From: Escherichia coli
GTDB lineage: Bacteria; Pseudomonadota; Gammaproteobacteria; Enterobacterales; Enterobacteriaceae
DNA length: 23,806 nt
Direction: 5' to 3' (one strand)
NCBI GenBank assembly: GCA_025544715.1
Contig: GCA_025544715.1_4109.5
The position numbers were made by a program, and so were the translations under genes. The stretch's first letter is position 1. The number at the start of each line of letters is the position of its first letter. Positions 1-17,906 of the stretch are shown piece by piece. Below the pieces are notes generated by a model. The model did not search any database. It was not told the origin of the DNA and saw nothing but the letters and a program-made list of their open reading frames with translations.

Positions 1-51
1 GTATAGTACTGAAAGCATTAATCAATGACAGAAAAAAGTTAAAATAATCTA

Positions 52-80
52 TTGACAATATCATCCAGTACTGGCATAAT
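52..80 (+). promoter_or_regulatory. sigma70-type promoter
   Basis: TTGACA (52-57), 17-nt spacer containing AGTACTG, CATAAT (75-80), then conserved ACTTACATCAAG start region. Confidence 0.6.
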
Positions 81-140
81 ACTTACATCAAGACGAGAAC
101 GTCACTAACCCATAGGGTGCACAAATGTAACTGTCTAATA

Positions 141-176
141 TTGATCAAAAAATGATCTGATCAATACTTGATCAAT
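141..176 (+). promoter_or_regulatory. cluster of TTGATCAA palindromes (four GATC sites in about 32 bp)
   Basis: attgatcaaaaaatgatctgatcaatacttgatcaatttg read directly; overlaps -35 of next promoter. Confidence 0.4.
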
Positions 177-195
177 TTGCGTAAAGTAGTATAAT
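168..195 (+). promoter_or_regulatory. candidate sigma70-type promoter
   Basis: TTGATC (168-173), 16-nt spacer, TATAAT (190-195). Confidence 0.45.
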
Positions 196-378
196 TCTAT
201 GCAGTTGGTTAGACGAAAGGTTATGATTAGTAGTGGAAGTGTATAAAAATTTTCATGGTGTATCGTTTCGCACATATGGCAATGAATATGTGGTATCATG
301 TGGATTGGAAAAAGTAAGAACAAGTAATATTATTGTCGCATTACAGTACTATAGTATTTTTATAATGAGGTTAAAATA

Positions 379-636
379 ATGGCTGTAGGATTCACAAAAG
401 ATGGGGCCGAGCAAGACGAGATTAACGCAGTGATTCAGGCCGCTGTTAACCACGCTAGAACGCAAATTAACGCACAAATAGAATCACTGATACATTGCCT
501 CGACTGCGGTGATAAAATCCCTGAGAATCGCCGCCAGGCCGTTAAGGGGTGTAAGTACTGCATAACTTGCCAGGAGGATCATGATAGTATTTTTAAACGT
601 CAACCGCGTAATTGTTGGCATAGATCTATGAGATAA
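379..636 (+). CDS. TraR/DksA-family C4 zinc-finger protein (85 aa)
   Basis: GAGG 8 nt upstream of ATG; paired Cys motifs CLDCGDKIP...CKYCITCQ typical of TraR/DksA zinc fingers. Confidence 0.75.
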   Translation: MAVGFTKDGAEQDEINAVIQAAVNHARTQINAQIESLIHCLDCGDKIPENRRQAVKGCKYCITCQEDHDSIFKRQPRNCWHRSMR

Positions 637-642
637 AAAGTA

Positions 643-670
643 TTGACAGTACTGAAAGATAGTGTATACT
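643..670 (+). promoter_or_regulatory. sigma70-type promoter
   Basis: TTGACA (643-648), 16-nt spacer with AGTACTG, TATACT (665-670). Confidence 0.6.
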
Positions 671-699
671 ATTTTATATCTTAACTGAGGATTGAAATC

Positions 700-1056
700 A
701 TGGGTATTCAACACATCACGCGTACTACTGACAATGGCGAGATCACTGGCTATCAAGTACAGGGCAAAGTAGCACAATTGCAGTACTGGTTTGTAAAACG
801 TGGATTGATTGCACCGGATCTTGATTATGACCGTGTAGCGTTTATTGATTCTCTTTATGTTGATCCTGATAGTCGGGGCAATGGTGAAGGTAACGAATTA
901 ATGAATGCCTTTATTGATGCCGCCGATGATTCAGATTGTATCATTTTAGAATGCGATACGGGAGAAGATAACGCCTTTAATCTTAAAGAATGGTACGAAG
1001 GTTTCGGATTCGAGGTACTGATCGATAGTGAATATCCTATCATGATTTTATCATAG
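700..1056 (+). CDS. small GNAT-like N-acetyltransferase (118 aa)
   Basis: GAGG RBS; VDPDSRGNGEGNELM resembles GNAT motif A (R-x-x-G-x-G) and C-terminal FNLKEWYEGFGF resembles motif B; judged by eye only. Confidence 0.55.
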   Translation: MGIQHITRTTDNGEITGYQVQGKVAQLQYWFVKRGLIAPDLDYDRVAFIDSLYVDPDSRGNGEGNELMNAFIDAADDSDCIILECDTGEDNAFNLKEWYEGFGFEVLIDSEYPIMILS

Positions 1057-1059
1057 TAC

Positions 1060-1088
1060 TTGCATTTAGTTTTCAGTACTGTTATAGT
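1060..1088 (+). promoter_or_regulatory. sigma70-type promoter
   Basis: TTGCAT (1060-1065), 17-nt spacer with AGTACTG, TATAGT (1083-1088), ACTTACATCAAG downstream. Confidence 0.6.
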
Positions 1089-1100
1089 ACTTACATCAAG

Positions 1101-1117
1101 GGGAAACATCTTCCCCT
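1101..1117 (+). other. 5' leader stem-loop (GGGGAA / TTCCCC)
   Basis: 6-bp inverted repeat just downstream of predicted transcription start, upstream of RBS. Confidence 0.5.
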
Positions 1118-1128
1118 ACTAAGAGGAA

Positions 1129-1323
1129 ATGAAAATGGAAAACTTATCAAGTATTTTAGTACAAGATGATTTCGGTAATCCTGGAAGTGCTATCATTGTT
1201 CGGGGTAATAAAGCAACATTTGTTATTGCTGGTGGACCTGTACAGCGTAGCATTAAAAACAATGCCGTTACTATTAATAATGTACGCTATCGCTTAGATA
1301 AAGAATTGATTCATAAACTGTAA
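1129..1323 (+). CDS. hypothetical protein (64 aa)
   Basis: ORF after promoter, hairpin and AAGAGG; in-frame ATG at 1135 is an alternative start. Confidence 0.6.
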   Translation: MKMENLSSILVQDDFGNPGSAIIVRGNKATFVIAGGPVQRSIKNNAVTINNVRYRLDKELIHKL

Positions 1324-1350
1324 TATTAATTTAATAGAGGATAACAATAA

Positions 1351-1674
1351 ATGTACATTCATACTACTATCACAAAGGAAGTCCGTTGCCAGTTCGAAAG
1401 TATTCCGGGCGTATGTTTCATCACTGGTACGTTTTCCCCTGGTGATCGTGATAATCCAGTACTGTTACAATTACGCCATCCATCATGGGATAAAGCATTT
1501 GATCTACCGTTGAATGAATTCGCAACTACTGCTGAAAAGTACATTAAAAATATTCGTGAGAATGATCGACTATTCATTAATGCTTTTAGTGATTCCGCGT
1601 TAAGCGAGATCCACGGCGTATTGGTTGCAATCATGGAATCAATGGAGAAAACTAAATTCAAACAAGGTGAATAA
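1351..1674 (+). CDS. hypothetical protein (107 aa)
   Basis: GAGGA RBS 8-9 nt upstream of ATG. Confidence 0.65.
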   Translation: MYIHTTITKEVRCQFESIPGVCFITGTFSPGDRDNPVLLQLRHPSWDKAFDLPLNEFATTAEKYIKNIRENDRLFINAFSDSALSEIHGVLVAIMESMEKTKFKQGE

Positions 1675-1680
1675 AAACTA

Positions 1681-1709
1681 TTGACAATGTAATCTAGTAC
1701 TGTATAATA
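1681..1709 (+). promoter_or_regulatory. sigma70-type promoter (consensus)
   Basis: TTGACA (1681-1686), 17-nt spacer with AGTACTG, TATAAT (1704-1709). Confidence 0.7.
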
Positions 1710-1720
1710 AGTTACATGAA

Positions 1721-1741
1721 GGGGAGAAAATGATTCTCCCC
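1721..1741 (+). other. 5' leader stem-loop (GGGGAGAA / TTCTCCCC)
   Basis: perfect 8-bp inverted repeat with 5-nt loop between promoter and RBS. Confidence 0.6.
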
Positions 1742-1758
1742 ACTGAGAGGAAAGAAAA

Positions 1759-1971
1759 ATGCAAGGTCAACTAATCGTTCGTAAATGGTCTGATACTAAT
1801 GAAAAACCGTGGGATGTTCAATACATCGGACCGGATGGGGTATCACGTTATCAGCCTGGCGTAACGCATAGTACTGAGCAATTCGCCAACGCTCACCGCG
1901 AACGCCTGTTAGAATCCATGAAACAGGGATACGGTGAAAAATTCATTCAAGATCATTGGCTGAAAGATTAA
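1759..1971 (+). CDS. hypothetical protein (70 aa)
   Basis: promoter, leader hairpin, GAGAGG RBS, ATG. Confidence 0.7.
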   Translation: MQGQLIVRKWSDTNEKPWDVQYIGPDGVSRYQPGVTHSTEQFANAHRERLLESMKQGYGEKFIQDHWLKD

Positions 1972-1988
1972 TATAAGGAGTACAGCTT

Positions 1989-2081
1989 ATGCAAATGAAT
2001 CCGATGATTATTGTTTTAGCTGTACTTATGATCATTCATGCAATAGTAGAAGTATTAAATCAATCAGGAGTAATAAAATGA
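1989..2081 (+). CDS. small hydrophobic peptide (30 aa, MQMNPMIIVLAVLMIIHAIVEVLNQSGVIK)
   Basis: AAGGAG 8 nt upstream of ATG; below ORF-track size cutoff; stop overlaps next start (ATGA). Confidence 0.4.
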   Translation: MQMNPMIIVLAVLMIIHAIVEVLNQSGVIK

Positions 2082-2251
2082 TCCAGGTAGAATTAACAGT
2101 ACTGAAAGATCTGTTTTATCGGTTAGGTACTACTGGCGAGTATCCTAAAAGTGATACCGCAAAACTTTTTGTATCACTCGATTTATGGCAACGCGAACAA
2201 TTAGTAATGTCCTGGCGTAAAGGTAAAGCAGATAGCGAGGTGAAAGCATGA
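2078..2251 (+). CDS. hypothetical small protein (57 aa)
   Basis: translated by hand; ATGA overlap with neighbours on both sides. Confidence 0.45.
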   Translation: MIQVELTVLKDLFYRLGTTGEYPKSDTAKLFVSLDLWQREQLVMSWRKGKADSEVKA

Positions 2252-2397
2252 AAGAATTCTTATTCGAAGTAGTGTTTCAAGGTGTCGGTAGTAACCAACT
2301 GATTCGCTCAAGTGGTTACAATGTTAACCAGGCATGGAATAACATTAAACAAATGTACCCGAACGCTATCACATATCGCAACCCGAAAGAAGTTTAA
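2248..2397 (+). CDS. hypothetical small protein (49 aa)
   Basis: translated by hand; ATGA overlap upstream; ends just before terminator-like hairpin. Confidence 0.45.
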   Translation: MKEFLFEVVFQGVGSNQLIRSSGYNVNQAWNNIKQMYPNAITYRNPKEV

Positions 2398-2411
2398 AAA
2401 GAATTGAAAAA

Positions 2412-2433
2412 GGGATTGACTCCGGTCAGTCCC
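2412..2433 (+). terminator. terminator-like hairpin GGGATTGAC-TCCG-GTCAGTCCC
   Basis: 9-bp stem with one G-U pair and 4-nt loop, preceded by A-run, followed by TTTGCTATTATATA. Confidence 0.5.
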
Positions 2434-2444
2434 TTTGCTATTAT
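2416..2444 (+). promoter_or_regulatory. promoter embedded in hairpin
   Basis: TTGACT (2416-2421), 17-nt spacer, TATTAT (2439-2444). Confidence 0.55.
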
Positions 2445-2535
2445 ATACGCATAGAAACAAATCAGCCCACAGGGTGCATAAATGTATCTATTGTTTGCTG
2501 GTGGCTAGTACTGAAAACTATTTTTAAAAAAGTAC

Positions 2536-2563
2536 TTGCATTGTACTTAGAATCAAGTATAAT
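2536..2563 (+). promoter_or_regulatory. sigma70-type promoter of the AAAAAGTACTTGCA class
   Basis: A-tract, TTGCAT (2536-2541), 16-nt spacer, TATAAT (2558-2563), GTTTTACAT downstream; same cassette at 5262, 6118, 6453, 7961. Confidence 0.6.
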
Positions 2564-2651
2564 GTTTTACATCAGGACGGGGAACGAAACAAGTAACCCC
2601 GTTAAGTAGTCCAGGAGTAAGACATAAGAAAACCTCCCCTGATAAAATAGT

Positions 2652-2680
2652 TTGACAATAGAAAGTAAACGAGTATAATA
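2652..2680 (+). promoter_or_regulatory. sigma70-type promoter (consensus)
   Basis: TTGACA (2652-2657), 17-nt spacer, TATAAT (2675-2680), ACTTACATCAA downstream. Confidence 0.7.
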
Positions 2681-2712
2681 CTTACATCAACCACTGATAA
2701 GGAAACATTAAA

Positions 2713-2988
2713 ATGCGGATTCTACTGACAGCTAACGAAATCGAACAAGTACTGACTACTAACCTGGAAGACTGGAAACGTGAAGCAGATATCCAGGCGG
2801 TTCAATGGCTTAACGATAAGTTAACGCCGGATGACTTAAGCAAGATTGTAGATCCTCAATTCTACGAAGATATTCACGACACCGCGTTAAGCGTCGAGGA
2901 TGTACTTGATAAGCACTACATTGATATTGATTTGCAGGTTTACGGTCGTAAAAACTTTATCACTATTCACGACATTTACAATAATTAA
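2713..2988 (+). CDS. hypothetical protein (91 aa)
   Basis: AAGGA RBS 10 nt upstream of ATG; promoter upstream. Confidence 0.7.
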   Translation: MRILLTANEIEQVLTTNLEDWKREADIQAVQWLNDKLTPDDLSKIVDPQFYEDIHDTALSVEDVLDKHYIDIDLQVYGRKNFITIHDIYNN

Positions 2989-2991
2989 GTA

Positions 2992-3019
2992 TTGACAAAG
3001 TATCTTAGTACTGTATAAT
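2992..3019 (+). promoter_or_regulatory. sigma70-type promoter (consensus)
   Basis: TTGACA (2992-2997), 16-nt spacer with AGTACTG, TATAAT (3014-3019); almost identical to promoter at 5569. Confidence 0.7.
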
Positions 3020-3034
3020 AGTTTACATCAAGGC

Positions 3035-3052
3035 AGGGGGAATGGTTCCCCT
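3035..3052 (+). other. 5' leader stem-loop (AGGGGGA / TTCCCCT)
   Basis: inverted repeat with AATGG loop between promoter and RBS. Confidence 0.55.
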
Positions 3053-3076
3053 CCTAACTAAAAGAGAGAAATTAAA

Positions 3077-3400
3077 ATGGCTATGATCCTGTCCCAGAAA
3101 GTAGAACTGAAAATTGTAACCTCCTTTGACATTAAAGTGAATCGCTGGACTGATCGGAACGGTAACACTTACCACTCTTGCTACGTGTCCGCATTGATTG
3201 GTGATCGCTGGGAGGATTTAGGACACGAAACATTTACATACGGTTACGGCACTCAAGGCGAATACACGGGCTTGGAGATCATTAAAGAAACCGTTATAGG
3301 TTTCAACCCGAAAGAAAACGTTATTCACCGCATCGAGGAAGAGATCAACAAAGAAATAACAGTTCGCTACTACGATGTAAAACGTAAGAAAGATATGTAA
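3077..3400 (+). CDS. hypothetical protein (107 aa)
   Basis: promoter, leader hairpin, purine-rich RBS, ATG. Confidence 0.7.
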   Translation: MAMILSQKVELKIVTSFDIKVNRWTDRNGNTYHSCYVSALIGDRWEDLGHETFTYGYGTQGEYTGLEIIKETVIGFNPKENVIHRIEEEINKEITVRYYDVKRKKDM

Positions 3401-3422
3401 TAGAATCCATTTAAAGTACTAT

Positions 3423-3451
3423 TTGACATTGCCCAGATAGTACTTTATAAT
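3423..3451 (+). promoter_or_regulatory. sigma70-type promoter (consensus)
   Basis: TTGACA (3423-3428), 17-nt spacer with AGTACT, TATAAT (3446-3451). Confidence 0.7.
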
Positions 3452-3495
3452 AGACTCTAACTTGTAGTACTAACTTAACTAATAGGATATATACC

Positions 3496-3891
3496 ATGAT
3501 TACTAAATTCTACGCTACCCGTGAAGCTGCCCGTATTGTTGCACGCGAGGAAGGAGAAGCATTTAAAGACATGGGCAAAGATGCACCGAAAGGCCAACGC
3601 TGGGCCGTACAGTTCAAAGAAATCTCTGATATTGTGAATTCACCTGAGCCAGTACTAACAGCAGAAGAACAAAAACAAGCTGAAGAACTGGCGGCAATTC
3701 TTAACGCTCAAGATGAATTCGTCGCGGGTACTGATATCCAGGTTGTAGTAAATTCGAATGCATGGACTCACGCGGATCACCTGGCAAACCTGAAGCGTCC
3801 AAGTGAACTGATTCGCAACCAAAAAGAGATCCGTCATGACCGTAAGGGAAACCGTGTTACCGTATACAGTAAACGCCGCCAGGTTATCTAA
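3496..3891 (+). CDS. hypothetical protein (131 aa)
   Basis: AGGA RBS; consensus promoter upstream; followed by strong terminator. Confidence 0.7.
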   Translation: MITKFYATREAARIVAREEGEAFKDMGKDAPKGQRWAVQFKEISDIVNSPEPVLTAEEQKQAEELAAILNAQDEFVAGTDIQVVVNSNAWTHADHLANLKRPSELIRNQKEIRHDRKGNRVTVYSKRRQVI

Positions 3892-3913
3892 TAACTTGCA
3901 GTACTAACAACAC

Positions 3914-3938
3914 GGCGGGATCAGTTCCCGCCTTTTTT
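3914..3938 (+). terminator. rho-independent terminator
   Basis: GGCGGGA-TCAGT-TCCCGCC 7-bp GC-rich stem followed by TTTTTT. Confidence 0.8.
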
Positions 3939-3953
3939 ATAGGATAAACTAAA

Positions 3954-4208
3954 ATGATGAAGGTACAACTATCTAAAGATAATATCTTGCGGGTACACTA
4001 TAAAGCACCACAGAGAATCATCACAAAGGCCGTACAGCTTGCTAATGAGTTTATTAATGGTAGTCTATTACCCAGGAAGTTAAGCAACGGGAAACTACGT
4101 GTTATCGATGTAGACACTAACAACAGAATAGTAATTGAGAATACTGGAAAGATAAACCTTTATGAGCATCAACAGTATAATAAGAAAATAAAACTAATAT
4201 CACGTTGA
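3954..4208 (+). CDS. hypothetical protein (84 aa)
   Basis: AGGA RBS then ATG; lies directly after terminator, so expression may rely on read-through. Confidence 0.6.
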   Translation: MMKVQLSKDNILRVHYKAPQRIITKAVQLANEFINGSLLPRKLSNGKLRVIDVDTNNRIVIENTGKINLYEHQQYNKKIKLISR

Positions 4209-4233
4209 CAGTACTCAAATGTTTTAGTACTAT
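4205..4233 (+). promoter_or_regulatory. candidate sigma70-type promoter
   Basis: TTGACA (4205-4210) overlapping upstream stop codon, 17-nt spacer with two AGTACT, TACTAT (4228-4233). Confidence 0.5.
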
Positions 4234-4262
4234 GTATCTATACCAACACGGGGGAAAACAAA

Positions 4263-4505
4263 ATGATTACTTTAGAAAAACGTATCAAAGAAACTACATC
4301 GCTGGTGGAACTGTTAACTGTACTGAAATGCCGTACTACTCGGTTTAGTACACCGGACTTTATTAATATGGTTGATGTTAACGGTCGTTATCGCATTGCA
4401 GTAGAACAAGGAACAGCGAAAGTATTCAGTACTAAAAACACTAAGGAAGTGATTCACGCTGTAAGTGTTAAAAAAGTAGTTGCAATTGATAGTAAAGTAC
4501 TGTAA
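4263..4505 (+). CDS. hypothetical protein (80 aa)
   Basis: GGGGGA RBS then ATG. Confidence 0.6.
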   Translation: MITLEKRIKETTSLVELLTVLKCRTTRFSTPDFINMVDVNGRYRIAVEQGTAKVFSTKNTKEVIHAVSVKKVVAIDSKVL

Positions 4506-4536
4506 GATAGTTACATTAACTCAAGGAGAACATGCA

Positions 4537-5121
4537 ATGCGTCAATATACTAAATTCATCCGGTCCCTGTCAGAAATGGAAACTAATAAAGAGATCCTTT
4601 CAGCTTGTCGGTTAGCTGGTCTGGAAATCATCGGGGCCGGATCATCCCGTATAGTATTCGCTTTAAATGATCGGTTAGTGATTAAGGTCGCTAATTGTGA
4701 TGCGGGTGTAGAACAAAATGAAACTGAATGTAAGGTATGGAATTTTTTAGACTATGACCGCCCTCAGTTGAAACAGTTCTTTGCTAAGGTGCATATGCAT
4801 TTAAGCGATCCTGATAATATGTTTATTGTTATGGATCGTTTGAGTACTGCAAGCAAAGGCAGTGTAAAGCACGTTAACGCGTGCAACGAATTAAAGTACA
4901 ATATTAAACGTAATGCCATTGAACGCCAGCACCGCTTTGCTGATGCATTACAACACGTTGATGATACCTTATCAACCCTAACGTTAAGAGATATCAGAAA
5001 ACAGAACATCGGCCAGGATCGCAACGGCCTTATTAAAGTACTTGATTACGGTTTAACCCGCAATATCTGGAATCAGTACTATAAAAAGCGTGATGTAAAA
5101 GCCGTAACTATAACACGATAA
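4537..5121 (+). CDS. minimal protein-kinase-like protein (194 aa)
   Basis: AGGAGA RBS 7 nt upstream of ATG 4537 (ORF track extends to 4480). Gly-rich loop IGAGSSRIVF, then VIKV lysine, catalytic-loop-like DIRKQNIG (D-x-K-x-x-N) and DFG-like LDYG. Confidence 0.55.
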   Translation: MRQYTKFIRSLSEMETNKEILSACRLAGLEIIGAGSSRIVFALNDRLVIKVANCDAGVEQNETECKVWNFLDYDRPQLKQFFAKVHMHLSDPDNMFIVMDRLSTASKGSVKHVNACNELKYNIKRNAIERQHRFADALQHVDDTLSTLTLRDIRKQNIGQDRNGLIKVLDYGLTRNIWNQYYKKRDVKAVTITR

Positions 5122-5135
5122 AAAAGATTAAAAAT

Positions 5136-5157
5136 GGGATTGACTTCGGTCAGTCCC
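5136..5157 (+). terminator. terminator-like hairpin GGGATTGAC-TTCG-GTCAGTCCC
   Basis: 9-bp stem, UUCG tetraloop, U-containing tail; directly after stop of kinase-like gene. Confidence 0.5.
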
Positions 5158-5168
5158 TTTGCTATTAT
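5140..5168 (+). promoter_or_regulatory. promoter embedded in hairpin
   Basis: TTGACT, 17-nt spacer, TATTAT (5163-5168). Confidence 0.55.
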
Positions 5169-5261
5169 ATATTCATTGAGAGATAGCTCACTGACCCACA
5201 GGGTGCAGAAGTGTATCTATTATATAAGTATTCAGTACTGAAAACTATTTTTAAAAAGTAC

Positions 5262-5290
5262 TTGCAAACTATCTCAAATCGCGTATAATG
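5262..5290 (+). promoter_or_regulatory. sigma70-type promoter of the AAAAAGTACTTGCA class
   Basis: TTGCAA (5262-5267), 17-nt spacer, TATAAT (5285-5290). Confidence 0.6.
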
Positions 5291-5301
5291 TTTTATATCG
5301 A

Positions 5302-5323
5302 GAGGGGGAAATGGTTCTCCCTG
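5302..5323 (+). other. 5' leader stem-loop (GGGGGAA / TTCTCCC)
   Basis: inverted repeat with AATGG loop; the loop ATG is the spurious ORF-track start at 5311. Confidence 0.55.
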
Positions 5324-5343
5324 GTACATTAAGGAATAAAATC

Positions 5344-5565
5344 ATGACTACAATGACTTGCATTCACGCTTCAAACCTGCTTAATGATGCGGCCTTTAAT
5401 GTTGAAACAGAATATCAATGTTATCGGGATGAAAATAAAAAAGTTTTTGTAGTTGATAATAATGGTTTCCATATTGAATTGCAATCCGGTTTCACTGGCA
5501 TTGATGGTAAATCAGTATGGGGCGTACAGGACGATAAAGGCACATATCATTTTAAACGTAATTAA
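5344..5565 (+). CDS. hypothetical protein (73 aa)
   Basis: start moved from 5311 (hairpin loop) to ATG 5344, 8 nt after AAGGA. Confidence 0.6.
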   Translation: MTTMTCIHASNLLNDAAFNVETEYQCYRDENKKVFVVDNNGFHIELQSGFTGIDGKSVWGVQDDKGTYHFKRN

Positions 5566-5568
5566 GTA

Positions 5569-5596
5569 TTGACAAAGTATATCAGTACTGTATAAT
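5569..5596 (+). promoter_or_regulatory. sigma70-type promoter (consensus)
   Basis: TTGACAAAGTAT-ATCAGTACTG-TATAATAGTTTACATCAAGG, near-identical to 2992-3033. Confidence 0.7.
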
Positions 5597-5608
5597 AGTT
5601 TACATCAA

Positions 5609-5627
5609 GGGGAGAATAGTTCTCCCC
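5609..5627 (+). other. 5' leader stem-loop (GGGGAGAA / TTCTCCCC)
   Basis: perfect 8-bp inverted repeat, loop TAG. Confidence 0.6.
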
Positions 5628-5649
5628 GATACTAAAAGGAAACAAAATT

Positions 5650-5922
5650 ATGTCTAGCTACTCCGCTACTATGATCATTAAAGATATGAACGGTAATCCT
5701 ACTTCTGCTGGTGGATCATTTGGAAACATTAACTTAGATGGTCGGTTATCAATTGAATCAGCCATCAATGCAGCGAAAGAAGTTTTTAAGAATGAATGTA
5801 CTGTAAGCAAGCTGGATTATATGGGCTTCGCTATCGAAAAAACTAATCGTTTTGTGGACTACAAAAAACCACTGATGATTGATACTAACCTGAAAGCGAA
5901 CGAAGTGGAATACTTATTATGA
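5650..5922 (+). CDS. hypothetical protein (90 aa)
   Basis: AAGGA RBS then ATG. Confidence 0.65.
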   Translation: MSSYSATMIIKDMNGNPTSAGGSFGNINLDGRLSIESAINAAKEVFKNECTVSKLDYMGFAIEKTNRFVDYKKPLMIDTNLKANEVEYLL

Positions 5923-6110
5923 CAGTTGAAGAAGTTAAAAAAGTACTGGCAGTACTACGCTATCATAATCATTGCAAGGTTAAGAATGATCCTGATTATC
6001 TTGATTCATCCCTGGAAGAGGATACACTACAAGCAATAAGCCATATGCAAAAAATGCTTAAGCGTATGACTGAAAAGAATAGACCGGACTATATCGGAAA
6101 TAAAATTTAA
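5919..6110 (+). CDS. hypothetical protein (63 aa)
   Basis: ATGA overlap with upstream stop, suggesting translational coupling. Confidence 0.55.
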   Translation: MTVEEVKKVLAVLRYHNHCKVKNDPDYLDSSLEEDTLQAISHMQKMLKRMTEKNRPDYIGNKI

Positions 6111-6117
6111 AAAGTAC

Positions 6118-6145
6118 TTGCATTGTAGTTAGATTAACGTATAAT
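6118..6145 (+). promoter_or_regulatory. sigma70-type promoter of the AAAAAGTACTTGCA class
   Basis: TTGCAT (6118-6123), 16-nt spacer, TATAAT (6140-6145). Confidence 0.6.
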
Positions 6146-6157
6146 GTTTTACATAGA

Positions 6158-6178
6158 GCGGGGGAATAGTTCTCCCGC
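6158..6178 (+). other. 5' leader stem-loop (GCGGGGGAA / TTCTCCCGC)
   Basis: 9-bp stem with one G-U pair; same hairpin repeated at 7132-7152. Confidence 0.6.
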
Positions 6179-6196
6179 CAGTCCAGGAGATACACC

Positions 6197-6463
6197 ATGA
6201 ACACTATCGAAATCACTATCAATGCTCACGTATACGACAACGTAGTACTGCAAACTACTATGACCGCTCACGATACCAGTACTTTGCGGAATACCGTTGT
6301 AAGTGCTGTATGTGCTGCAATCGGTGATGTAGCCCTGGAAAATGCAGAACACATCAACAACGGTTTCACTATGTGCAAGCGTGATAACGCAAAACATATC
6401 ATCGTAGAAGGTTACGGCGGTGTAGAATATAACCTTTATATGAAAAAAGTACTTGCATCGTAA
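6197..6463 (+). CDS. hypothetical protein (88 aa)
   Basis: CCAGGAG RBS then ATG. Confidence 0.65.
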   Translation: MNTIEITINAHVYDNVVLQTTMTAHDTSTLRNTVVSAVCAAIGDVALENAEHINNGFTMCKRDNAKHIIVEGYGGVEYNLYMKKVLAS

Positions 6464-6480
6464 TTAAAACAAAGTATAAT
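6453..6480 (+). promoter_or_regulatory. sigma70-type promoter overlapping end of upstream CDS
   Basis: AAAAAGTACTTGCAT with TTGCAT at 6453-6458, 16-nt spacer, TATAAT (6475-6480). Confidence 0.55.
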
Positions 6481-6490
6481 GTTTTGCATA

Positions 6491-6509
6491 GGGGGAGATA
6501 TCCTCCCCC
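6491..6509 (+). other. 5' leader stem-loop (GGGGGAG / CTCCCCC)
   Basis: perfect 7-bp inverted repeat, loop ATATC. Confidence 0.6.
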
Positions 6510-6528
6510 ACTAATAAGGAGTACTAAA

Positions 6529-6753
6529 ATGGCTAATCATGATGACCTGATTCGGGAAGTAGCTAACCTGGCGGCAGAAAAGAAATCATTCGATTCTATC
6601 TATAACACCGCTCACCGTGATTCAGTACTGGCATCAACGCAAGATCAAAAAGATGAACTGATCGCCACCTATCATGAAGCATGGAAGTATTACCGCCAAT
6701 GGGAGAAAGAAGAAAGTGAGTCTACCATTGACGGCCTCAATAATCTAATCTAA
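6529..6753 (+). CDS. hypothetical protein (74 aa)
   Basis: ORF-track start 6484 is a TTG upstream of the hairpin; ATG 6529 follows AAGGAG RBS. Confidence 0.65.
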   Translation: MANHDDLIREVANLAAEKKSFDSIYNTAHRDSVLASTQDQKDELIATYHEAWKYYRQWEKEESESTIDGLNNLI

Positions 6754-6771
6754 AGTTTTATTTCAGTACTA

Positions 6772-6800
6772 TTGACAATACTGGATAGTACTGATATGAT
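6772..6800 (+). promoter_or_regulatory. sigma70-type promoter
   Basis: TTGACA (6772-6777), 17-nt spacer with AGTACTG, TATGAT (6795-6800). Confidence 0.55.
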
Positions 6801-6827
6801 AACTTTACTATCTAAAGGGGAAACATA

Positions 6828-7085
6828 ATGGAACAGTTCACACAATATCGGGTAAATCCTCAAGCTATGGCCTATGTAGAAGACCATAAAACATTACCAG
6901 TACTGCAACCAGTTAAAGGTCATATCTATCGTGCAATGTCATGGAGTAACGCCCAGGATGGATATACTACCGCCGCCGTGGGTATGTACTGCGGGAATGG
7001 TGAATGGTTTGATCCTAGTAATCCGGTAGCCATTGACAGTACTGAAAAAATGAAATGGGCCGACTACATCGAAGATATTTCATAA
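6828..7085 (+). CDS. hypothetical protein (85 aa)
   Basis: AAAGGGGA RBS then ATG. Confidence 0.65.
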   Translation: MEQFTQYRVNPQAMAYVEDHKTLPVLQPVKGHIYRAMSWSNAQDGYTTAAVGMYCGNGEWFDPSNPVAIDSTEKMKWADYIEDIS

Positions 7086-7091
7086 AACTAT

Positions 7092-7119
7092 TTGACAGTA
7101 CTAACCAGTAATGTATAAT
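7092..7119 (+). promoter_or_regulatory. sigma70-type promoter
   Basis: TTGACA (7092-7097), 16-nt spacer with AGTACT, TATAAT (7114-7119), GTTTTACATAGAG downstream. Confidence 0.65.
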
Positions 7120-7131
7120 GTTTTACATAGA

Positions 7132-7152
7132 GCGGGGGAATAGTTCTCCCGC
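7132..7152 (+). other. 5' leader stem-loop (GCGGGGGAA / TTCTCCCGC)
   Basis: identical to hairpin at 6158-6178. Confidence 0.6.
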
Positions 7153-7174
7153 CAATAGTTTGGAGTAAAACATT

Positions 7175-7375
7175 ATGTCTATCGCTATCGCCCTGGTTGA
7201 AGTACTGAAAGAAGCTAAAGCCAACCTTATCGATGTACAGATTAAGGAATTGCAAAATGGTTTAATCGGCTGTACTTGTACCGCTGGTGGAGCGGCAGAC
7301 TATCGGGAATTCGAATCACTTGAATCGATGGTCCGTTATCTTACCATGATCGTAGAAGATTGGAGAATCATCTAA
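7175..7375 (+). CDS. hypothetical protein (66 aa)
   Basis: GGAG RBS then ATG. Confidence 0.6.
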   Translation: MSIAIALVEVLKEAKANLIDVQIKELQNGLIGCTCTAGGAADYREFESLESMVRYLTMIVEDWRII

Positions 7376-7393
7376 CAAAAAAGAATAAAAAAA

Positions 7394-7415
7394 GGGATTG
7401 ACTCCGGTCAGTCCC
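7394..7415 (+). terminator. terminator-like hairpin GGGATTGAC-TCCG-GTCAGTCCC
   Basis: same hairpin as 2412-2433. Confidence 0.5.
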
Positions 7416-7426
7416 TTTGCTATTAT
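7398..7426 (+). promoter_or_regulatory. promoter embedded in hairpin
   Basis: TTGACT, 17-nt spacer, TATTAT (7421-7426). Confidence 0.55.
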
Positions 7427-7538
7427 ATACGCATAGACAAAAACTAGCCCACTGGGTGCAGGAGTGTATCCAAAATATATAGTTAATAACGGTGAGTAAC
7501 TATTTGCTGGTGGAGTGAAAACTATTAATAAAAAACTA

Positions 7539-7567
7539 TTGACAAAGTATATCAGTACTGCAATAAT
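7539..7567 (+). promoter_or_regulatory. candidate sigma70-type promoter
   Basis: TTGACAAAGTATATCAGTACTG then AATAAT; weaker -10 than sibling promoter at 5569. Confidence 0.5.
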
Positions 7568-7620
7568 GTATCTCGTAGGGCGGCAATGGTGCGACGGCCC
7601 ACAAAGTTAGGAGTAACATC

Positions 7621-8941: not shown

Positions 8942-8971
8942 ATGATTGATATTAATTTTAAGGGAGTCCCT

Positions 8972-9169
8972 ATGCATATTTTAACTCAAGCAGAACACCA
9001 CGAAAGACTTATCAATAACATGGCTATGATAATGTATAAGTCACATGAACGTGGTATGTCCTATAAGCGTGAATTAGTTATGGCACTATTCATTGGGACT
9101 AACTTTCAGGAAAGGTATGTCAACGATTGGATTTGGTATTTAATTGAAGATATAACGAGTAAACTATGA
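8972..9169 (+). CDS. family-1 paralog 1 (LGTNYQ-motif small protein)
   Basis: AAGGGAG RBS then ATG 8972 (ORF-track start 8942 is upstream of the RBS); C-terminal LFIGTNFQERYV...IEDITSKL. Confidence 0.65.
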   Translation: MHILTQAEHHERLINNMAMIMYKSHERGMSYKRELVMALFIGTNFQERYVNDWIWYLIEDITSKL

Positions 9170-9366
9170 AAATGCGTAAATTAACCGAAAAAGAATATCA
9201 AGCACTGTTACGTAAAAACTACACAAAGATTTATAATACAGACTCACACGTAGAAAGAATGGAGTTATACCTTTTGATTACATTGGGAACTAACTATCAG
9301 GATGCATGGGTAACGAAATATGTGGATACATTGAAAAATAAAACATTGTCCACGAGGAAACAATGA
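9166..9366 (+). CDS. family-1 paralog 2
   Basis: ATGA overlap; ITLGTNYQDAWV motif. Confidence 0.7.
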   Translation: MKMRKLTEKEYQALLRKNYTKIYNTDSHVERMELYLLITLGTNYQDAWVTKYVDTLKNKTLSTRKQ

Positions 9367-9572
9367 AAACTATAACACGAACCCAATCATTCGGACTTAT
9401 CTTGAAATACATGGACTTAATGGTGGATATCAGCAAAGACCTGCCTAAAACTGAAATTGAAGTTGCAAGAGCAGAGATCCGCATGTTGGCTGTACTGAAC
9501 ACAAACCATCAGGAAGATTATGTTGAAGAATGGATTCATTTTTTAATAGAAGATATTAAGAGTAAATTATGA
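9363..9572 (+). CDS. family-1 paralog 3
   Basis: ATGA overlap; AVLNTNHQEDYV...IEDIKSKL. Confidence 0.7.
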   Translation: MKTITRTQSFGLILKYMDLMVDISKDLPKTEIEVARAEIRMLAVLNTNHQEDYVEEWIHFLIEDIKSKL

Positions 9573-9784
9573 TTATTATAGAAAACTCATATCAATATAC
9601 TGAACGCATTGCTGCCAGGCAACTTGAAATCCTCATAATATACGAAGAGACTTCTGATTTAAACTTAGCTGAGGTATTGGAAAATGAAATACTTTTGGGT
9701 GCATTCTTGGGAACTGACTATCAGGAGTATTATGAGCAAAAGTATTTGTCATCTCTTGAGAAATACATCAGGAGCAAATTATGA
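9569..9784 (+). CDS. family-1 paralog 4
   Basis: ATGA overlap; AFLGTDYQEYY motif. Confidence 0.7.
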   Translation: MIIIENSYQYTERIAARQLEILIIYEETSDLNLAEVLENEILLGAFLGTDYQEYYEQKYLSSLEKYIRSKL

Positions 9785-9993
9785 TTTTTTTAACACCTGA
9801 AGAATATAAGAAACGTTTTAATTCTGTCCAGACTGAAATATTACTTATATACCTTTCAAATGCAGACCTTAACTTATCAAGGGCAATGGAGAAGGATTTA
9901 CTTATGGGTGCATTTTTGGATACAGACTTTCAGGAGTATTATGTAGGGAAATACTTAATTGAACTTCAGAACTACATTAAGAGTAAACTATGA
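9781..9993 (+). CDS. family-1 paralog 5
   Basis: ATGA overlap; AFLDTDFQEYYV motif. Confidence 0.7.
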   Translation: MIFLTPEEYKKRFNSVQTEILLIYLSNADLNLSRAMEKDLLMGAFLDTDFQEYYVGKYLIELQNYIKSKL

Positions 9994-10208
9994 AACATTT
10001 AAGTAATATAGAGAAGAATAAAATTATCATAGCTGCAATAAACAAATATTTTACACTTCAACAAAAAGAATGTTTATCTATAAGGGAACACAGAATAAAC
10101 ACCACCGATGTACGCATGATGGCTGTACTGGGGACTAACTTCCAAGAAGGCTATGTTCATGAGCACATCGTTGCACTCACTAATTACATAATGGACAAAT
10201 GTAAATGA
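9990..10208 (+). CDS. family-1 paralog 6
   Basis: ATGA overlap; AVLGTNFQEGYV motif. Confidence 0.7.
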   Translation: MKHLSNIEKNKIIIAAINKYFTLQQKECLSIREHRINTTDVRMMAVLGTNFQEGYVHEHIVALTNYIMDKCK

Positions 10209-10417
10209 AACGTCTTAGCAGCAGAGAATATTCTGCTATATTACATAAAGCTTTACCTGAGTTACAAAACATCGAGACGACCATCCCTGAGCCAACGCGA
10301 GGTGTACTGTTTACGGATTGTATGTTATTACACTTCATGGGAACTAATCACCAAGAATCTATAGTATCATCTCTCATCAACGCACTTAAACTTGAAATAA
10401 GAGACAAATGTAAATGA
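10205..10417 (+). CDS. family-1 paralog 7
   Basis: ATGA overlap; HFMGTNHQESIV motif. Confidence 0.7.
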   Translation: MKRLSSREYSAILHKALPELQNIETTIPEPTRGVLFTDCMLLHFMGTNHQESIVSSLINALKLEIRDKCK

Positions 10418-11353: not shown

Positions 11354-11549
11354 ATATATTAAGCTTCTGAAAACCTGTGCAAGCAGAAGGAGAAAGATTC
11401 AAAATGATAAAAGCATCTCTATTGACCTTAAGCACGCACTAGTAACTGAACTCTATGTAGGTGCACTCTTAGGCACAGACTATCAACAAATGTATGTAGA
11501 CATGTGGATTGAGGCTCTACTGAAAGAGGTTAAAAGTAAATGCAAATGA
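11331..11549 (+). CDS. family-1 paralog 12
   Basis: ALLGTDYQQMYV...KSKCK. Confidence 0.65.
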   Translation: MRKLQGVEYIKLLKTCASRRRKIQNDKSISIDLKHALVTELYVGALLGTDYQQMYVDMWIEALLKEVKSKCK

Positions 11550-16730: not shown

Positions 16731-17276
16731 ATGAATGAGATAGAATTATTAGCACACAAGATTAGTACAATAATGCTTATCCTCAATAACAACCATCCTA
16801 TATCGCAGATAGATGGAATCCTGAGTCAGAGGACAGGTGGTAGTTTATATTTGACATTAACAGAGGTTATCGCAAGGAATTACATTGATATTGAAATCGA
16901 GAACAGTGATGCATCAGGAAAGGTTGATGTAGGTGCATTAATCAGTTCAAATCCAGTATCAGCATCACCATTGACACGAAATGTAAGTACAGGATTCGAA
17001 GGGTATTTGTGGTACAATACCAATGATGATTATTTTATATATCAGCATTCAAATACAAATTATGATGAAGACAAATTTAAGTTCATAGACCCTTATGATG
17101 AAGCTGAAGTATTTCAAAAATCATTAATCACAAAACCGCATGAGATGATGTATCTAATGTTATTCAGTACAATGCATTTGAATCCATTAATTAAAGGTTT
17201 AAAATTTTATATTCAATTGAATTTAGTCCATGTAGTTTATGATTTATTAATGCAAGGATATAGTTATGAAGTATAA
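16731..17276 (+). CDS. family-2 paralog, long form (181 aa)
   Basis: DEAEVFQKSLI motif; C-terminus ...VYDLLMQGYSYEV parallels C-terminus of 17887-18462. Confidence 0.65.
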   Translation: MNEIELLAHKISTIMLILNNNHPISQIDGILSQRTGGSLYLTLTEVIARNYIDIEIENSDASGKVDVGALISSNPVSASPLTRNVSTGFEGYLWYNTNDDYFIYQHSNTNYDEDKFKFIDPYDEAEVFQKSLITKPHEMMYLMLFSTMHLNPLIKGLKFYIQLNLVHVVYDLLMQGYSYEV

Positions 17277-17577
17277 AATGCTTTATACATTAACATTAAT
17301 ATATGTAGAATTAGAATCCGATTCAGATGCATGGAATTTAGTTAAAGAGGTCGATACAAATCAATGGTACATGGCAAATTTAGACGCACAGGTTGTTACG
17401 GATTATTTTATAGATTTTAATACATTATCTGAAGAAGAATTTTTCCAAATGCAATTGGTGGTTGACATGTACGGGCATGACATGGTAACATTACGAAATA
17501 TACAGAAAGCCGTTAATGAAATCCAAAGCAAGAAAGATTATGAGGTAGGAGCGTATTATGACATCGACGTACAATGA
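17266..17577 (+). CDS. family-2 paralog (103 aa)
   Basis: LSEEEFFQMQLVVD motif; close paralog of next gene. Confidence 0.7.
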   Translation: MKYKMLYTLTLIYVELESDSDAWNLVKEVDTNQWYMANLDAQVVTDYFIDFNTLSEEEFFQMQLVVDMYGHDMVTLRNIQKAVNEIQSKKDYEVGAYYDIDVQ

Positions 17578-17588
17578 GTACAATAGTT

Positions 17589-17906
17589 ATGAAGTATAAA
17601 ATGCTTAATACAGTATCAGGGATATATGTAGAATTAGAATCCGATTATTCAGATGGATGGAATTTTATTAAACGCCACGATATAAATACATGGTACATGG
17701 CACATTTGGATAATGACGTAATAATAGATAATTTTGTCGATTTTAATACATTATCAGAAGAAGAATTTTTCCAAATGCAATTTGTGCTTGATACAAATGG
17801 ATTTGATTTGCTATTATTAAGGAATATTCAGAAAGCGGTTAATGAATTCATAATCCAAAATAATTCAGGTAAAATGGGGATGTTCCATGATCTGGAAGTA
17901 CAATGA
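17589..17906 (+). CDS. family-2 paralog (105 aa)
   Basis: start placed at ATG 17589, homologous to the start of 17266; LSEEEFFQMQFVLD motif. Confidence 0.65.
   Translation: MKYKMLNTVSGIYVELESDYSDGWNFIKRHDINTWYMAHLDNDVIIDNFVDFNTLSEEEFFQMQFVLDTNGFDLLLLRNIQKAVNEFIIQNNSGKMGMFHDLEVQ

What the first reader, a model, noticed from the sequence alone, without database searches (positions are those of the whole stretch)
379..636. TraR/DksA-like zinc-finger protein as first gene of the block
The C4 motif CLDCGDKIPENRRQAVKGCKYCITCQ matches the TraR/DksA zinc-finger pattern. Proteins of this family bind the RNA polymerase secondary channel, so a phage copy could redirect host transcription.
Basis: partly seen in the sequence, partly recalled or inferred. 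Interest (0 to 1): 0.45.

Follow-up and report, generated by a model that had tools for sequence, protein, structure and literature searches.

The report
Phage YbiI/TraR-type zinc-finger protein gene
This is a real, conserved 85-residue zinc-finger gene of the TraR/DksA superfamily in an Asteriusvirus jumbo coliphage, already annotated in close relatives; it probably binds host RNA polymerase, but it belongs to the untested YbiI-like branch, which lacks TraR's key DxxDxA motif.

Summary
The ORF at 379..636 (+) exists exactly as described. It passes Pfam PF01258 (45 bits, cut-off 24.9) and evolves under purifying selection (dN/dS 0.1-0.25).

The window is 98% identical to Asteriusvirus jumbo coliphages (121Q/PBECO4 group). 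The gene is already annotated there as 'DksA-like zinc-finger protein' and sits inside the ~21-kb direct terminal repeat.

The family call is right but coarse. The closest relative is E. coli YbiI (PDB 2KGO), then F-plasmid TraR (predicted fold TM 0.51-0.57).
- The C4 finger and the RNA-polymerase-contact motif IPExRR are conserved.
- The DxxDxA tip that TraR and lambda Orf73 need for activity is absent: 0 of 91 YbiI-like sequences have it, against 94 of 102 TraR-like ones.
- In its place is a conserved N-terminus, MAVGF(A/T)KDGAEQ. Its D8-x-x-E11 lies at the usual TraR distance from the finger.
- The C-terminus is a distinct conserved tail, FKRxPRNCWHRSMR.

It is not the first gene of a block. 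Related genomes have more than 20 same-strand genes upstream, and a conserved 48-codon ORF overlaps its start codon (TAATG).

Modulation of host RNA polymerase through the secondary channel is plausible (confidence about 0.55) but untested for this branch. Overall this is an ordinary, already-known kind of gene.

The parts
379..636 (+). 85-aa YbiI/TraR-type C4 zinc-finger protein gene (stop codon included). N-terminal helix about residues 7-28, zinc finger C40/C43/C61/C64, contact motif I47-P48-E49-x-R51-R52, conserved tail F72..R85.
367..370 (+). Ribosome-binding site GAGG, 8 nt before the ATG. It lies inside the 100%-conserved 3' end of the upstream ORF.
   Evidence: read from the sequence; invariant in 8 phages
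233..379 (+). Upstream 48-codon ORF (GTG start here, TTG in the other haplotype; phrog_38664, unknown function). Its TAA overlaps the ATG of the zinc-finger gene (TAATG), so the two are probably translationally coupled.
   Evidence: The ORF stays open, with no indels, across two haplotypes with dS 0.7-0.9; dN/dS 0.2-0.4. PHROG E 1.5e-34. Annotated in 121Q, fEgEco12, WPEC3, PBECO4 and JNE01.
52..80 (+). Promoter-like site P1: TTGACA, 17 nt, CATAAT (11/12). Likely start of the transcription unit, with transcription starting at about 87.
   Evidence: region 1-135 nearly invariant in 8 phages. Function inferred, not shown.
168..195 (+). Promoter-like site P2: TTGATC, 16 nt, TATAAT (10/12). The -10 hexamer is conserved in both haplotypes.
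141..175 (.). Cluster of four GATC sites (three copies of TTGATCAA/TGATCAA) overlapping the -35 of P2. Possibly Dam/SeqA-sensitive or an operator; function unknown.
   Evidence: Densest GATC cluster in the window. GATCAA repeats are kept in the diverged haplotype.
643..670 (+). Next promoter-like site (TTGACA, 16 nt, TATACT), starting 7 nt after the stop codon. It drives the GNAT acetyltransferase gene at 700..1056. No terminator lies between the two genes.

Best explanation
The gene encodes a small zinc-ribbon protein of the DksA/TraR superfamily, in the YbiI-like branch. A lytic Asteriusvirus jumbo coliphage carries it in its direct terminal repeat.

Likely expression: it is transcribed early by host sigma-70 RNA polymerase from near-consensus promoters, and translated as the second cistron behind a 48-codon ORF.

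Most likely mechanism (inferred by homology, not shown): the protein binds host RNA polymerase the way TraR and lambda Orf73 do. [quoted passage not shown] The N-terminal helix runs down the channel towards the active site. This changes open-complex kinetics without needing ppGpp. Short-lived host promoters with GC-rich discriminators (rRNA, ribosomal protein genes) would be inhibited, while the phage's consensus promoters with AT-rich discriminators would keep firing.

The tip differs from TraR. It is MAVGF(A/T)K-D8-G-A-E11-Q rather than DxxDxA, so potency or the exact effect at the active site may differ.

Family membership is close to certain. The confidence given here is for the RNA polymerase mechanism.
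For: Family:
- Pfam PF01258 above its gathering score; PHROG 54.
- The YbiI-type model NF008243 aligns residues 1-72.
- PDB sequence matches to YbiI 2KGO and TraR 5W1S/6N57.
- The AF2 model (pLDDT 74) has a long N-terminal helix, a zinc ribbon and a short C-terminal helix. It superposes on RNA-polymerase-bound TraR 6N57_M with TM 0.51/0.57 and rmsd 2.9 A over 62 columns.
- Profile-profile comparison with TraR homologues gives probability 99.5%.

Contact residues:
- Ungapped offset of 3 from TraR. TraR P45, E46, R48 and R49 correspond to P48, E49, R51 and R52, which are invariant or nearly so.
- Their roles in RNA polymerase binding and beta'Si3 contact are described in PMC6970531 and PMC9239242.

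Tip geometry:
- D8 and E11 lie 32 and 29 residues before the first Cys. The second Asp of DxxDxA lies 29 residues before it (so the first lies 32 before) in 86 of the 94 TraR-type homologues that carry the motif.

Precedents:
- All five phage TraR homologues tested bind RNA polymerase and inhibit rrnB P1. These include one lacking D3 (Gp34), one lacking A8 (P2 Orf82) and one with an N-terminal extension (VHML Orf8) (PMC9239242).
- Overexpressed YbiI rescues the amino-acid auxotrophy of a dksA deletion strain (PMC2613031, data not shown there).

Expression context:
- 15 near-consensus sigma-70 promoters, all on the + strand, against 0.86 expected from shuffles; their discriminators are AT-rich.
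- The gene lies in the terminal repeat (PMC13070987).
- The T4-like homologue sits behind an early-type promoter.
- Purifying selection.
Against: - The DxxDxA motif, whose two aspartates are each required for TraR and lambda Orf73 activity (PMC9239242), is absent. None of 91 YbiI-like sequences has it, against 94 of 102 TraR-like ones.
- The N-terminal 18-20 residues cannot be aligned to TraR profiles with any confidence.
[quoted passage not shown] The extra 2-5 N-terminal residues here would have to be accommodated somehow.
- TraR P43, which matters for binding, is K46 here.
- The C-terminal helix that contacts beta-Si1 is predicted only for residues 62-68. It is followed by a proline and a low-confidence tail.
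- PMC9239242 warns that C4 finger proteins lacking these features can be inactive.
- No experiment on YbiI-like phage proteins was found.
Confidence: 0.55

Rival explanations
1. The protein occupies the secondary channel but does not act like TraR. With its longer, non-DxxDxA tip it would work mainly as a plug or competitor. It could exclude DksA, GreA and GreB, or its N-terminal extension (AVGF...) could interfere directly with the active site, trigger loop or NTP entry. The result would be general dampening of host transcription rather than promoter-selective reprogramming.
For: - The rim-helix contact motif is conserved, but the catalytic-site tip differs.
- The N-terminus M1-A2-x-G4-[FW]5 and D8-G9-A10 is as conserved as the zinc ligands (3-4.3 bits per column), so the tip is under strong constraint.
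- The TraR N-terminus already reaches 4.3 A from the Mg.
- Rnk is a precedent for a channel binder that only competes (PMC9239242).
Against: - Host YbiI shares the same tip, and it is reported to rescue a dksA deletion auxotrophy rather than to be toxic.
- The phage's own early, middle and late transcription appears to depend on host RNA polymerase core. Only sigma factors are annotated in relatives. A general inhibitor would therefore hurt the phage.
Confidence: 0.2
2. The protein is a zinc-ribbon protein whose job has nothing to do with RNA polymerase. It shares whatever unknown role YbiI has in the host (a stationary-phase, sigma-S-dependent gene next to iron-uptake genes), or it binds another partner through its conserved C-terminal tail.
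For: - YbiI function is unknown. [quoted passage not shown]
- ybiI is sigma-S dependent (PMC4447067).
- The tail FKRxPRNCWHRSMR (NRRGSKDSQLR in YbiI) is as conserved as the finger.
- The tail survives on its own, fused to an unrelated N-terminus, in a Mosigvirus protein.
- Some C4 DksA-like proteins do not act on RNA polymerase.
Against: - The residues TraR uses to dock on RNA polymerase (P45, E46, R48, R49) are the most conserved non-cysteine positions of the whole family.
- The predicted fold matches RNA-polymerase-bound TraR.
- Every TraR-length homologue tested so far binds RNA polymerase.
Confidence: 0.2
3. The ORF is a chance reading frame or a decaying gene remnant.
For: In one record (CMSTMSU, flagged UNVERIFIED) the frame is broken by single-base indels. 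Several records leave the ORF unannotated or call it 'hypothetical'.
Against: - Intact in 33 or more Asteriusvirus genomes.
- dN/dS 0.1-0.25.
- 60-72% identical homologues in T4-like phages.
- Strong profile matches.
- A good ribosome-binding site.
Confidence: 0.02

Closest known systems
E. coli YbiI (PDB 2KGO; NCBIfam NF008243 / PRK11019), function unknown
   Same: - Best match by sequence (E 9e-12) and by fold search.
- Colinear from residue 1.
- Shares the N-terminal signature MAxG[FW]xxDGAxQxxI, the C4 finger, IPExRR and D69.
   Different: - Only 37% identical.
- Scores 79.8 bits, below the equivalog cut-off of 96.
- Position 11 is Glu rather than Val.
- One extra residue lies between the helix and the finger.
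- H25 is present, and the tail is FKRxPRNCWHRSMR instead of YNRRGSKDSQLR.
- It is phage-borne and probably early-expressed, rather than a sigma-S-dependent host gene.
F-plasmid TraR (PDB 5W1S, 6N57), a ppGpp-independent regulator acting through the RNA polymerase secondary channel
   Same: - Same architecture: N-terminal helix, C4 zinc globular domain, C-terminal helix.
- TM 0.51-0.57, rmsd about 3 A.
- Equivalents of P45, E46, R48, R49, G54 and Q62 are conserved.
- Similar small size (85 against 73 aa).
   Different: - 27% identity.
- No DxxDxA; the N-terminus is longer and not alignable.
- P43 is replaced by K46 and K50 by Q53.
- The predicted C-terminal helix is shorter and is followed by a conserved basic/aromatic tail.
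- Below the TIGR02419 and NF010268 cut-offs.
Phage lambda Orf73 and the other tested phage TraR homologues (P2 Orf82, VP882 Orf61, VHML Orf8, X. bovienii Gp34)
   Same: - Phage-encoded small C4 proteins of the same superfamily.
- tblastn finds lambda, Stx phages and phiCTX at 42-49% identity over the finger region.
- D8/E11 lie at the same distance from the finger as D3/D6 of lambda Orf73.
- Function is tolerated with a missing D3, a missing A8 or an N-terminal extension.
   Different: - Those proteins come from temperate phages and carry DxxDxA or a one-residue variant of it.
- This one comes from a virulent jumbo phage (with relatives in T4-like phages), belongs to the YbiI-like branch, and has not been tested.
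DksA
   Same: Shares the C4 zinc-finger motif (Pfam PF01258).
   Different: - No coiled coil, no ppGpp-binding residues and about half the length.
- NF033459 scores 15.9 bits against a cut-off of 105.
- Foldseek match to DksA-RNA polymerase 7KHI is not significant (E 0.69).

Membership tests
DksA/TraR C4 zinc-finger superfamily (Pfam PF01258) | Profile score at or above the gathering threshold | tested here: met
   45 bits against 24.9, E 1.1e-11, residues 39-68
DksA/TraR C4 zinc-finger superfamily (Pfam PF01258) | CxxC-N17-CxxC zinc-binding motif | tested here: met
   C40, C43, C61 and C64 are invariant in 91 homologues. Zinc binding itself was not tested.
TraR family (TIGR02419 / NF010268; functional definition of Gopalkrishnan et al.) | Curated profile cut-offs | tested here: not met
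   TIGR02419 scores 52.5 against 59.7. NF010268 scores 30 against 108. Both alignments start only at residue 16 or 21.
TraR family (TIGR02419 / NF010268; functional definition of Gopalkrishnan et al.) | N-terminal DxxDxA motif (D3, D6, A8) at the tip of the helix | tested here: not met
   0 of 91 YbiI-like sequences have it, against 94 of 102 TraR-like ones. hhalign gives no confident N-terminal alignment. A variant, D8-G-A-E11-Q-D13, sits at the TraR-typical distance from the finger.
TraR family (TIGR02419 / NF010268; functional definition of Gopalkrishnan et al.) | Globular-domain residues that contact the beta' rim helices and beta'Si3 (P45, E46, R48, R49) | tested here: met
   P48, E49, R51 and R52 are conserved. 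P43 and K50 are not conserved (K46, Q53).
TraR family (TIGR02419 / NF010268; functional definition of Gopalkrishnan et al.) | C-terminal helix (TraR 58-73) that contacts the beta lobe-Si1 | tested here: inconclusive
   AF2 predicts a helix only for residues 62-68 (equivalent to TraR 59-65). After that come P76 and a tail with pLDDT 46-63.
TraR family (TIGR02419 / NF010268; functional definition of Gopalkrishnan et al.) | Binds the RNA polymerase secondary channel; inhibits rrnB P1 and activates amino-acid promoters without ppGpp | not testable with these tools
   Needs biochemistry. There is only indirect support: the fold match to RNA-polymerase-bound TraR and literature on homologues.
YbiI family (NCBIfam NF008243 / PRK11019 equivalog) | Curated equivalog cut-off | tested here: not met
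   79.8 bits against 96. Residues 1-72 align to model positions 1-71, but the tail does not align.
YbiI family (NCBIfam NF008243 / PRK11019 equivalog) | N-terminal signature MAxG[FW]xx[DE][GD]A.Q..I | tested here: met
   The protein begins MAVGFTKDGAEQDEI. 71 of 91 family members carry [FWY]xx[DE][GD]A.
YbiI family (NCBIfam NF008243 / PRK11019 equivalog) | C-terminal tail [YF]NRRGSKDSQL[RK] | tested here: not met
   Replaced by PRNCWHRSMR in the phage clade (41 sequences). One intermediate, HNRKVWHRSMR, suggests the two tails are homologous.
DksA (NF033459) | Coiled-coil domain with DxxDxA at its tip, ppGpp-binding residues, length of about 150 aa | tested here: not met
   85 aa, a single N-terminal helix, 15.9 bits against 105.

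The most novel reading that the evidence does not exclude
The YbiI-like branch, including this phage clade found in Asteriusvirus and several T4-like genera, could be a functionally distinct class of RNA polymerase secondary-channel factors. Its conserved tip (A2-x-G4-[FW]5...D8-G-A-E11) would reach further into the active site than TraR does, and its conserved C-terminal tail (possibly together with H25) would make a contact TraR lacks. The outcome would differ from DksA/TraR-type promoter selection. Virulent phages would deploy it from the terminal repeat at the very start of infection.
Probability: 0.2. Interest if true: 0.6.

Novelty: already known. Interest (0 to 1): 0.25.

Why it matters
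Small phage and plasmid proteins that bind the RNA polymerase secondary channel reprogram host transcription without ppGpp. Lambda Orf73 raises burst size in this way.

This gene shows that virulent jumbo and T4-like coliphages carry a relative of those proteins in their early regions. Here it lies in the terminal repeat, so each packaged genome holds two copies.

The gene and its family assignment are already in public annotation, so the finding adds little. Its one useful pointer is that this widespread YbiI-like branch (hundreds of clusters) lacks the motif thought essential for TraR activity, yet keeps the RNA polymerase docking residues. A single set of standard in vitro assays could settle whether the branch works like TraR, and would also give a first function for E. 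coli YbiI.

Tried and rejected
- I tried to fix the register of the N-terminal tip against TraR three ways. MAFFT gave offset 0 with a 3-residue gap. Global hhalign put a gap at DGA and then offset 3. hhalign on sub-families gave local alignments that start only at residue 19 or 25. None gives a confident N-terminal alignment, so only a distance argument is offered.
- A literature search for YbiI function found one sentence with data not shown and sigma-S dependence. Nothing was found on YbiI-like phage proteins.
- Rfam and tRNA scans of the window found nothing.
- The small hairpins after P1 (92-103 and 108-118) fold no better than shuffled sequence (z -0.35). They are not claimed as features.
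- A candidate promoter right before the gene (TATAGT at 350-355) was rejected because it has no -35 element.
- The upstream gene in T4-like phage MN04 overlaps the zinc-finger gene in the same way but is unrelated to the 48-aa ORF here. There is therefore no conserved two-gene module across phage families.

Full report
**Observation.** The window has an ATG-to-TAA ORF of 85 codons at 379..636 on the + strand. A GAGG ribosome-binding site lies 8 nt upstream. The translation is MAVGFTKDGAEQDEINAVIQAAVNHARTQINAQIESLIHCLDCGDKIPENRRQAVKGCKYCITCQEDHDSIFKRQPRNCWHRSMR. The coordinates and the motif are correct.

**Is it more than chance?** Yes, on three counts.
- Profile matches: Pfam PF01258 (zf-dskA_traR) scores 45 bits against a gathering score of 24.9, E 1.1e-11. 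PHROG 54 'DksA-like zinc-finger protein' gives E 3.3e-19.
- Solved structures: the best sequence matches are E. coli YbiI (2KGO, E 9e-12) and F-plasmid TraR (5W1S and 6N57, E about 1.5e-5).
- Selection: among seven Asteriusvirus copies, dN/dS is 0.09-0.27 with dS up to 0.5.

**Where the window comes from.** The first 3 kb are 91-98% identical to Asteriusvirus jumbo coliphages such as vB_EcoM_CRJP21, SP27, 121Q, PBECO4 and fEgEco12.
- The same gene is present in 36 records. It is annotated as 'C-4 type zinc finger protein', 'DksA-like zinc-finger protein' or 'TraR/DksA C4-type zinc finger protein' in many of them.
- Records that include the terminal redundancy (366 kb or more) hold two copies. 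In vB_Ec-M-J the match lies under a feature called 'Direct Terminal Repeats'.
- fEgEco12 has an experimentally supported 20,993-bp direct terminal repeat (PMC13070987), and its copy lies at 11.4-11.8 kb.
- The gene is therefore inside the terminal repeat, so a packaged genome carries it twice.

**Not the first gene of a block.**
- In phage ELP-22 more than 20 small same-strand genes lie in the 6 kb upstream.
- A 48-codon ORF at 233..379 ends with a TAA that overlaps the ATG of the zinc-finger gene (TAATG).
- That ORF matches phrog_38664 at E 1.5e-34.
- It stays open and free of indels in two haplotypes whose DNA has diverged to dS 0.7-0.9, with conservative replacements and dN/dS 0.2-0.4.
- It is therefore very probably a real gene, and the zinc-finger gene is the second cistron.

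**Promoters upstream.** Two promoter-like sites lie upstream: P1 at 52-80 (TTGACA-17-CATAAT) and P2 at 168-195 (TTGATC-16-TATAAT).
- The window holds 15 sites matching at least 11 of 12 consensus positions. All are on the + strand and none on the - strand. Shuffled sequence gives 0.86 on average.
- Ten of them lie in intergenic gaps of the first 7.6 kb.
- Their discriminators are AT-rich (for example TATAAT-AGTTTAC-A).
- This anatomy matches the early, host-RNA-polymerase-transcribed regions described for the related phage CBB (PMC5259590). That the gene is expressed early is an inference.

**Which family, precisely?** The protein is closest to the YbiI type.
- NCBIfam NF008243 (PRK11019, YbiI) aligns residues 1-72 to model positions 1-71 but scores 79.8 bits, below its cut-off of 96.
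- The TraR-family model TIGR02419 scores 52.5 against 59.7, and the TraR equivalog NF010268 scores 30 against 108. Both alignments begin only at residue 16 or 21.
- A search of 1.8 billion cluster representatives with the family profile found 2489 clusters at E up to 1e-3 and 269 at E up to 1e-10.
- The top hits share the YbiI pattern MA[GVT]G[WF]xxDGAVQ[DE]QID ... CxxC ... IPEARR ... CxxCQ ... [YF]NRRGSKDSQLR.
- Close homologues at 60-72% identity occur in T4-like phages of the genera Dhakavirus, Moonvirus and Tegunavirus.
- Those phage proteins share a different tail, FKRxPRNCWHRSMR, as well as E11, H25 and one extra residue before the finger.

**Structure.** An AlphaFold2 model built from 43 homologues has mean pLDDT 74.
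- Residues 1-6 are coil, 7-28 form a helix, then comes a zinc ribbon, then short helices at 49-54 and 62-68.
- The tail has low confidence (pLDDT 46-63).
- Foldseek against the PDB finds only YbiI (E 9e-6) and TraR in complex with RNA polymerase at E below 1e-3. For 6N57_M: E 6e-4, TM 0.51/0.57, rmsd 2.9 A over 62 columns.

**Features that define TraR function.** According to the Gourse and Darst laboratory papers, TraR has three parts (PMC9239242 and PMC6970531).
- An N-terminal helix (residues 2-27) whose DxxDxA tip reaches the active site. Residue S2 is 4.3 A from the Mg, and D3 and D6 are required for function.
- A C4 globular domain that docks on the beta' rim helices and beta'Si3, using P43, P45, E46, R48 and R49.
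- A C-terminal helix (residues 58-73) that contacts the beta lobe-Si1.

How this protein compares:
- The docking motif is kept. I47, P48, E49, R51 and R52 are invariant or nearly so in 91 family members. P43 and K50 are replaced by K46 and Q53.
- The tip is not kept. DxxDxA occurs in 94 of 102 TraR-like sequences and in none of 91 YbiI-like ones.
- Profile-profile alignment gives 99.5% probability of homology overall but no confident alignment for the first 18-24 residues.
- The family instead has its own N-terminus, M1-A2-x-G4-[FW]5-x-x-D8-G9-A10-x-Q12-x-x-I15. It is as conserved as the zinc ligands, at 3-4.3 bits per column.
- In the phage clade position 11 is Glu. D8 and E11 then lie 32 and 29 residues before the first Cys. 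In 86 of the 94 TraR-like sequences that carry DxxDxA, the second Asp lies 29 residues before the first Cys, which puts the first Asp at 32.
- D8-x-x-E11 may therefore stand in for DxxD, preceded by a conserved extension of about five residues. This is a geometric argument, not a demonstrated equivalence.
- The C-terminal helix is only partly predicted.

**Mechanism.** The best-supported reading has four steps. All of them are inferred from homology and from the promoter anatomy; none is shown here.
1. The protein is made early.
2. It docks on host RNA polymerase at the secondary channel through the IPExRR surface and inserts its N-terminal helix.
3. It shifts open-complex kinetics without ppGpp.
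4. Unstable host promoters lose out to the phage's consensus promoters with AT-rich discriminators.

Support comes from precedents.
- All five tested phage homologues bind RNA polymerase and inhibit rrnB P1. These include one lacking D3, one lacking A8 and one with an N-terminal extension.
- Overexpressed YbiI is reported to rescue the auxotrophy of a dksA deletion strain, though the data were not shown.

Against it:
- The canonical tip is missing.
- The extra N-terminal residues would lie in a very tight space near the Mg.
- The C-terminal helix is uncertain.
- PMC9239242 warns explicitly that C4 proteins lacking these features can be inactive.

I put the RNA polymerase mechanism at about 0.55. 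The rivals are a channel plug or competitor with a different effect at the active site (0.2), a function unrelated to RNA polymerase shared with YbiI (0.2), and a non-gene (0.02 or less).

**Novelty and score.** The gene, its family assignment and the idea that phage TraR homologues reprogram host transcription are all already public (GenBank annotations since 121Q, PHROG 54, PMC9239242).
- The added value here is refinement: the YbiI-like branch, the missing DxxDxA, the distinct tail, the location in the terminal repeat, and the position as second cistron.
- Classification: already known.
- Interest: 0.25.
- The most novel reading not excluded is that the YbiI-like branch is a functionally distinct class of secondary-channel factor (probability about 0.2, interest 0.6 if true).

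Noticed in passing
window 8942-14725: A tandem array of about 24 paralogous genes of 66-96 aa. Their stops and starts overlap, and they share the motif LGTNYQE plus a C-terminal helix-like segment. No function is known. This is an unusually large local expansion of one gene family.
   Followed up: partly
window 1-7600 (sites at 52, 643, 1681, 2652, 2992, 3423, 5569, 6772, 7092, 7539): Nearly every small gene has its own near-consensus sigma-70 promoter (six are perfect 12/12 matches). Across the whole window there are 15 such sites on the + strand and 0 on the - strand, against 0.86 expected. Most are followed by ACATCAAGG and a GC hairpin at the 5' end of the predicted transcript (for example 1099-1117, z -2.0).
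   Followed up: partly
window 2396-2488, 5120-5212, 7378-7470: A repeated 93-nt intergenic module. It is a terminator-like hairpin, AAAGGGATTGACTCCGGTCAGTCCCTTT, whose stem contains a -35-like TTGACT. A TATTAT follows 17 nt later, and then a conserved CCCACAGGGTGCA element. It looks like a terminator and a promoter fused into one unit.
   Followed up: no
window 141-175: Four GATC sites within 28 bp (TTGATCAA repeats) overlap the -35 of promoter P2, just upstream of the finding. This is the densest GATC cluster in the window. The diverged haplotype in 121Q, fEgEco12 and others keeps five GATCAA copies, including the palindrome TGATCAATTCTTGATCA after the -10. Possibly Dam/SeqA control or an operator.
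   Followed up: partly
window 233-379: A 48-codon ORF with a GTG start (TTG in other phages; phrog_38664) is conserved as a protein across two strongly diverged DNA haplotypes. It overlaps the start of the zinc-finger gene (TAATG). Its last 50 nt are 100% conserved at the DNA level.
   Followed up: yes
L015 517-681 (Escherichia phage vB_EcoM-ZQ3, Mosigvirus): A 54-aa protein that keeps only the second CxxC and the tail (YCVGCQSMHDEIFKREPRNCWHRSMR), joined to an unrelated N-terminus. It matches phrog_25948. It is either a remnant or evidence that the tail is an independent module.
   Followed up: partly
window 379-636, residues H25, H68, C79, W80, H81: In the phage clade, His25 on the N-terminal helix co-occurs with the C79-W80-H81 tail (42 and 41 of 91 sequences). 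This could mark a helix-tail contact or a second metal site. The signal is confounded by phylogeny and was not tested.
   Followed up: no
window 700-1056: The next gene encodes a minimal 118-aa GNAT acetyltransferase (Pfam PF00583, E 4e-9) with its own promoter. In PBECO4, BF17 and some Salmonella phages this gene is replaced, and homology to the window ends at about position 654.
   Followed up: partly
window 17321-17539 and 17647-17865: A direct repeat at 75% identity that corresponds to two adjacent paralogous genes (17266..17577 and 17574..17906). A third related segment lies near 20154.
   Followed up: no
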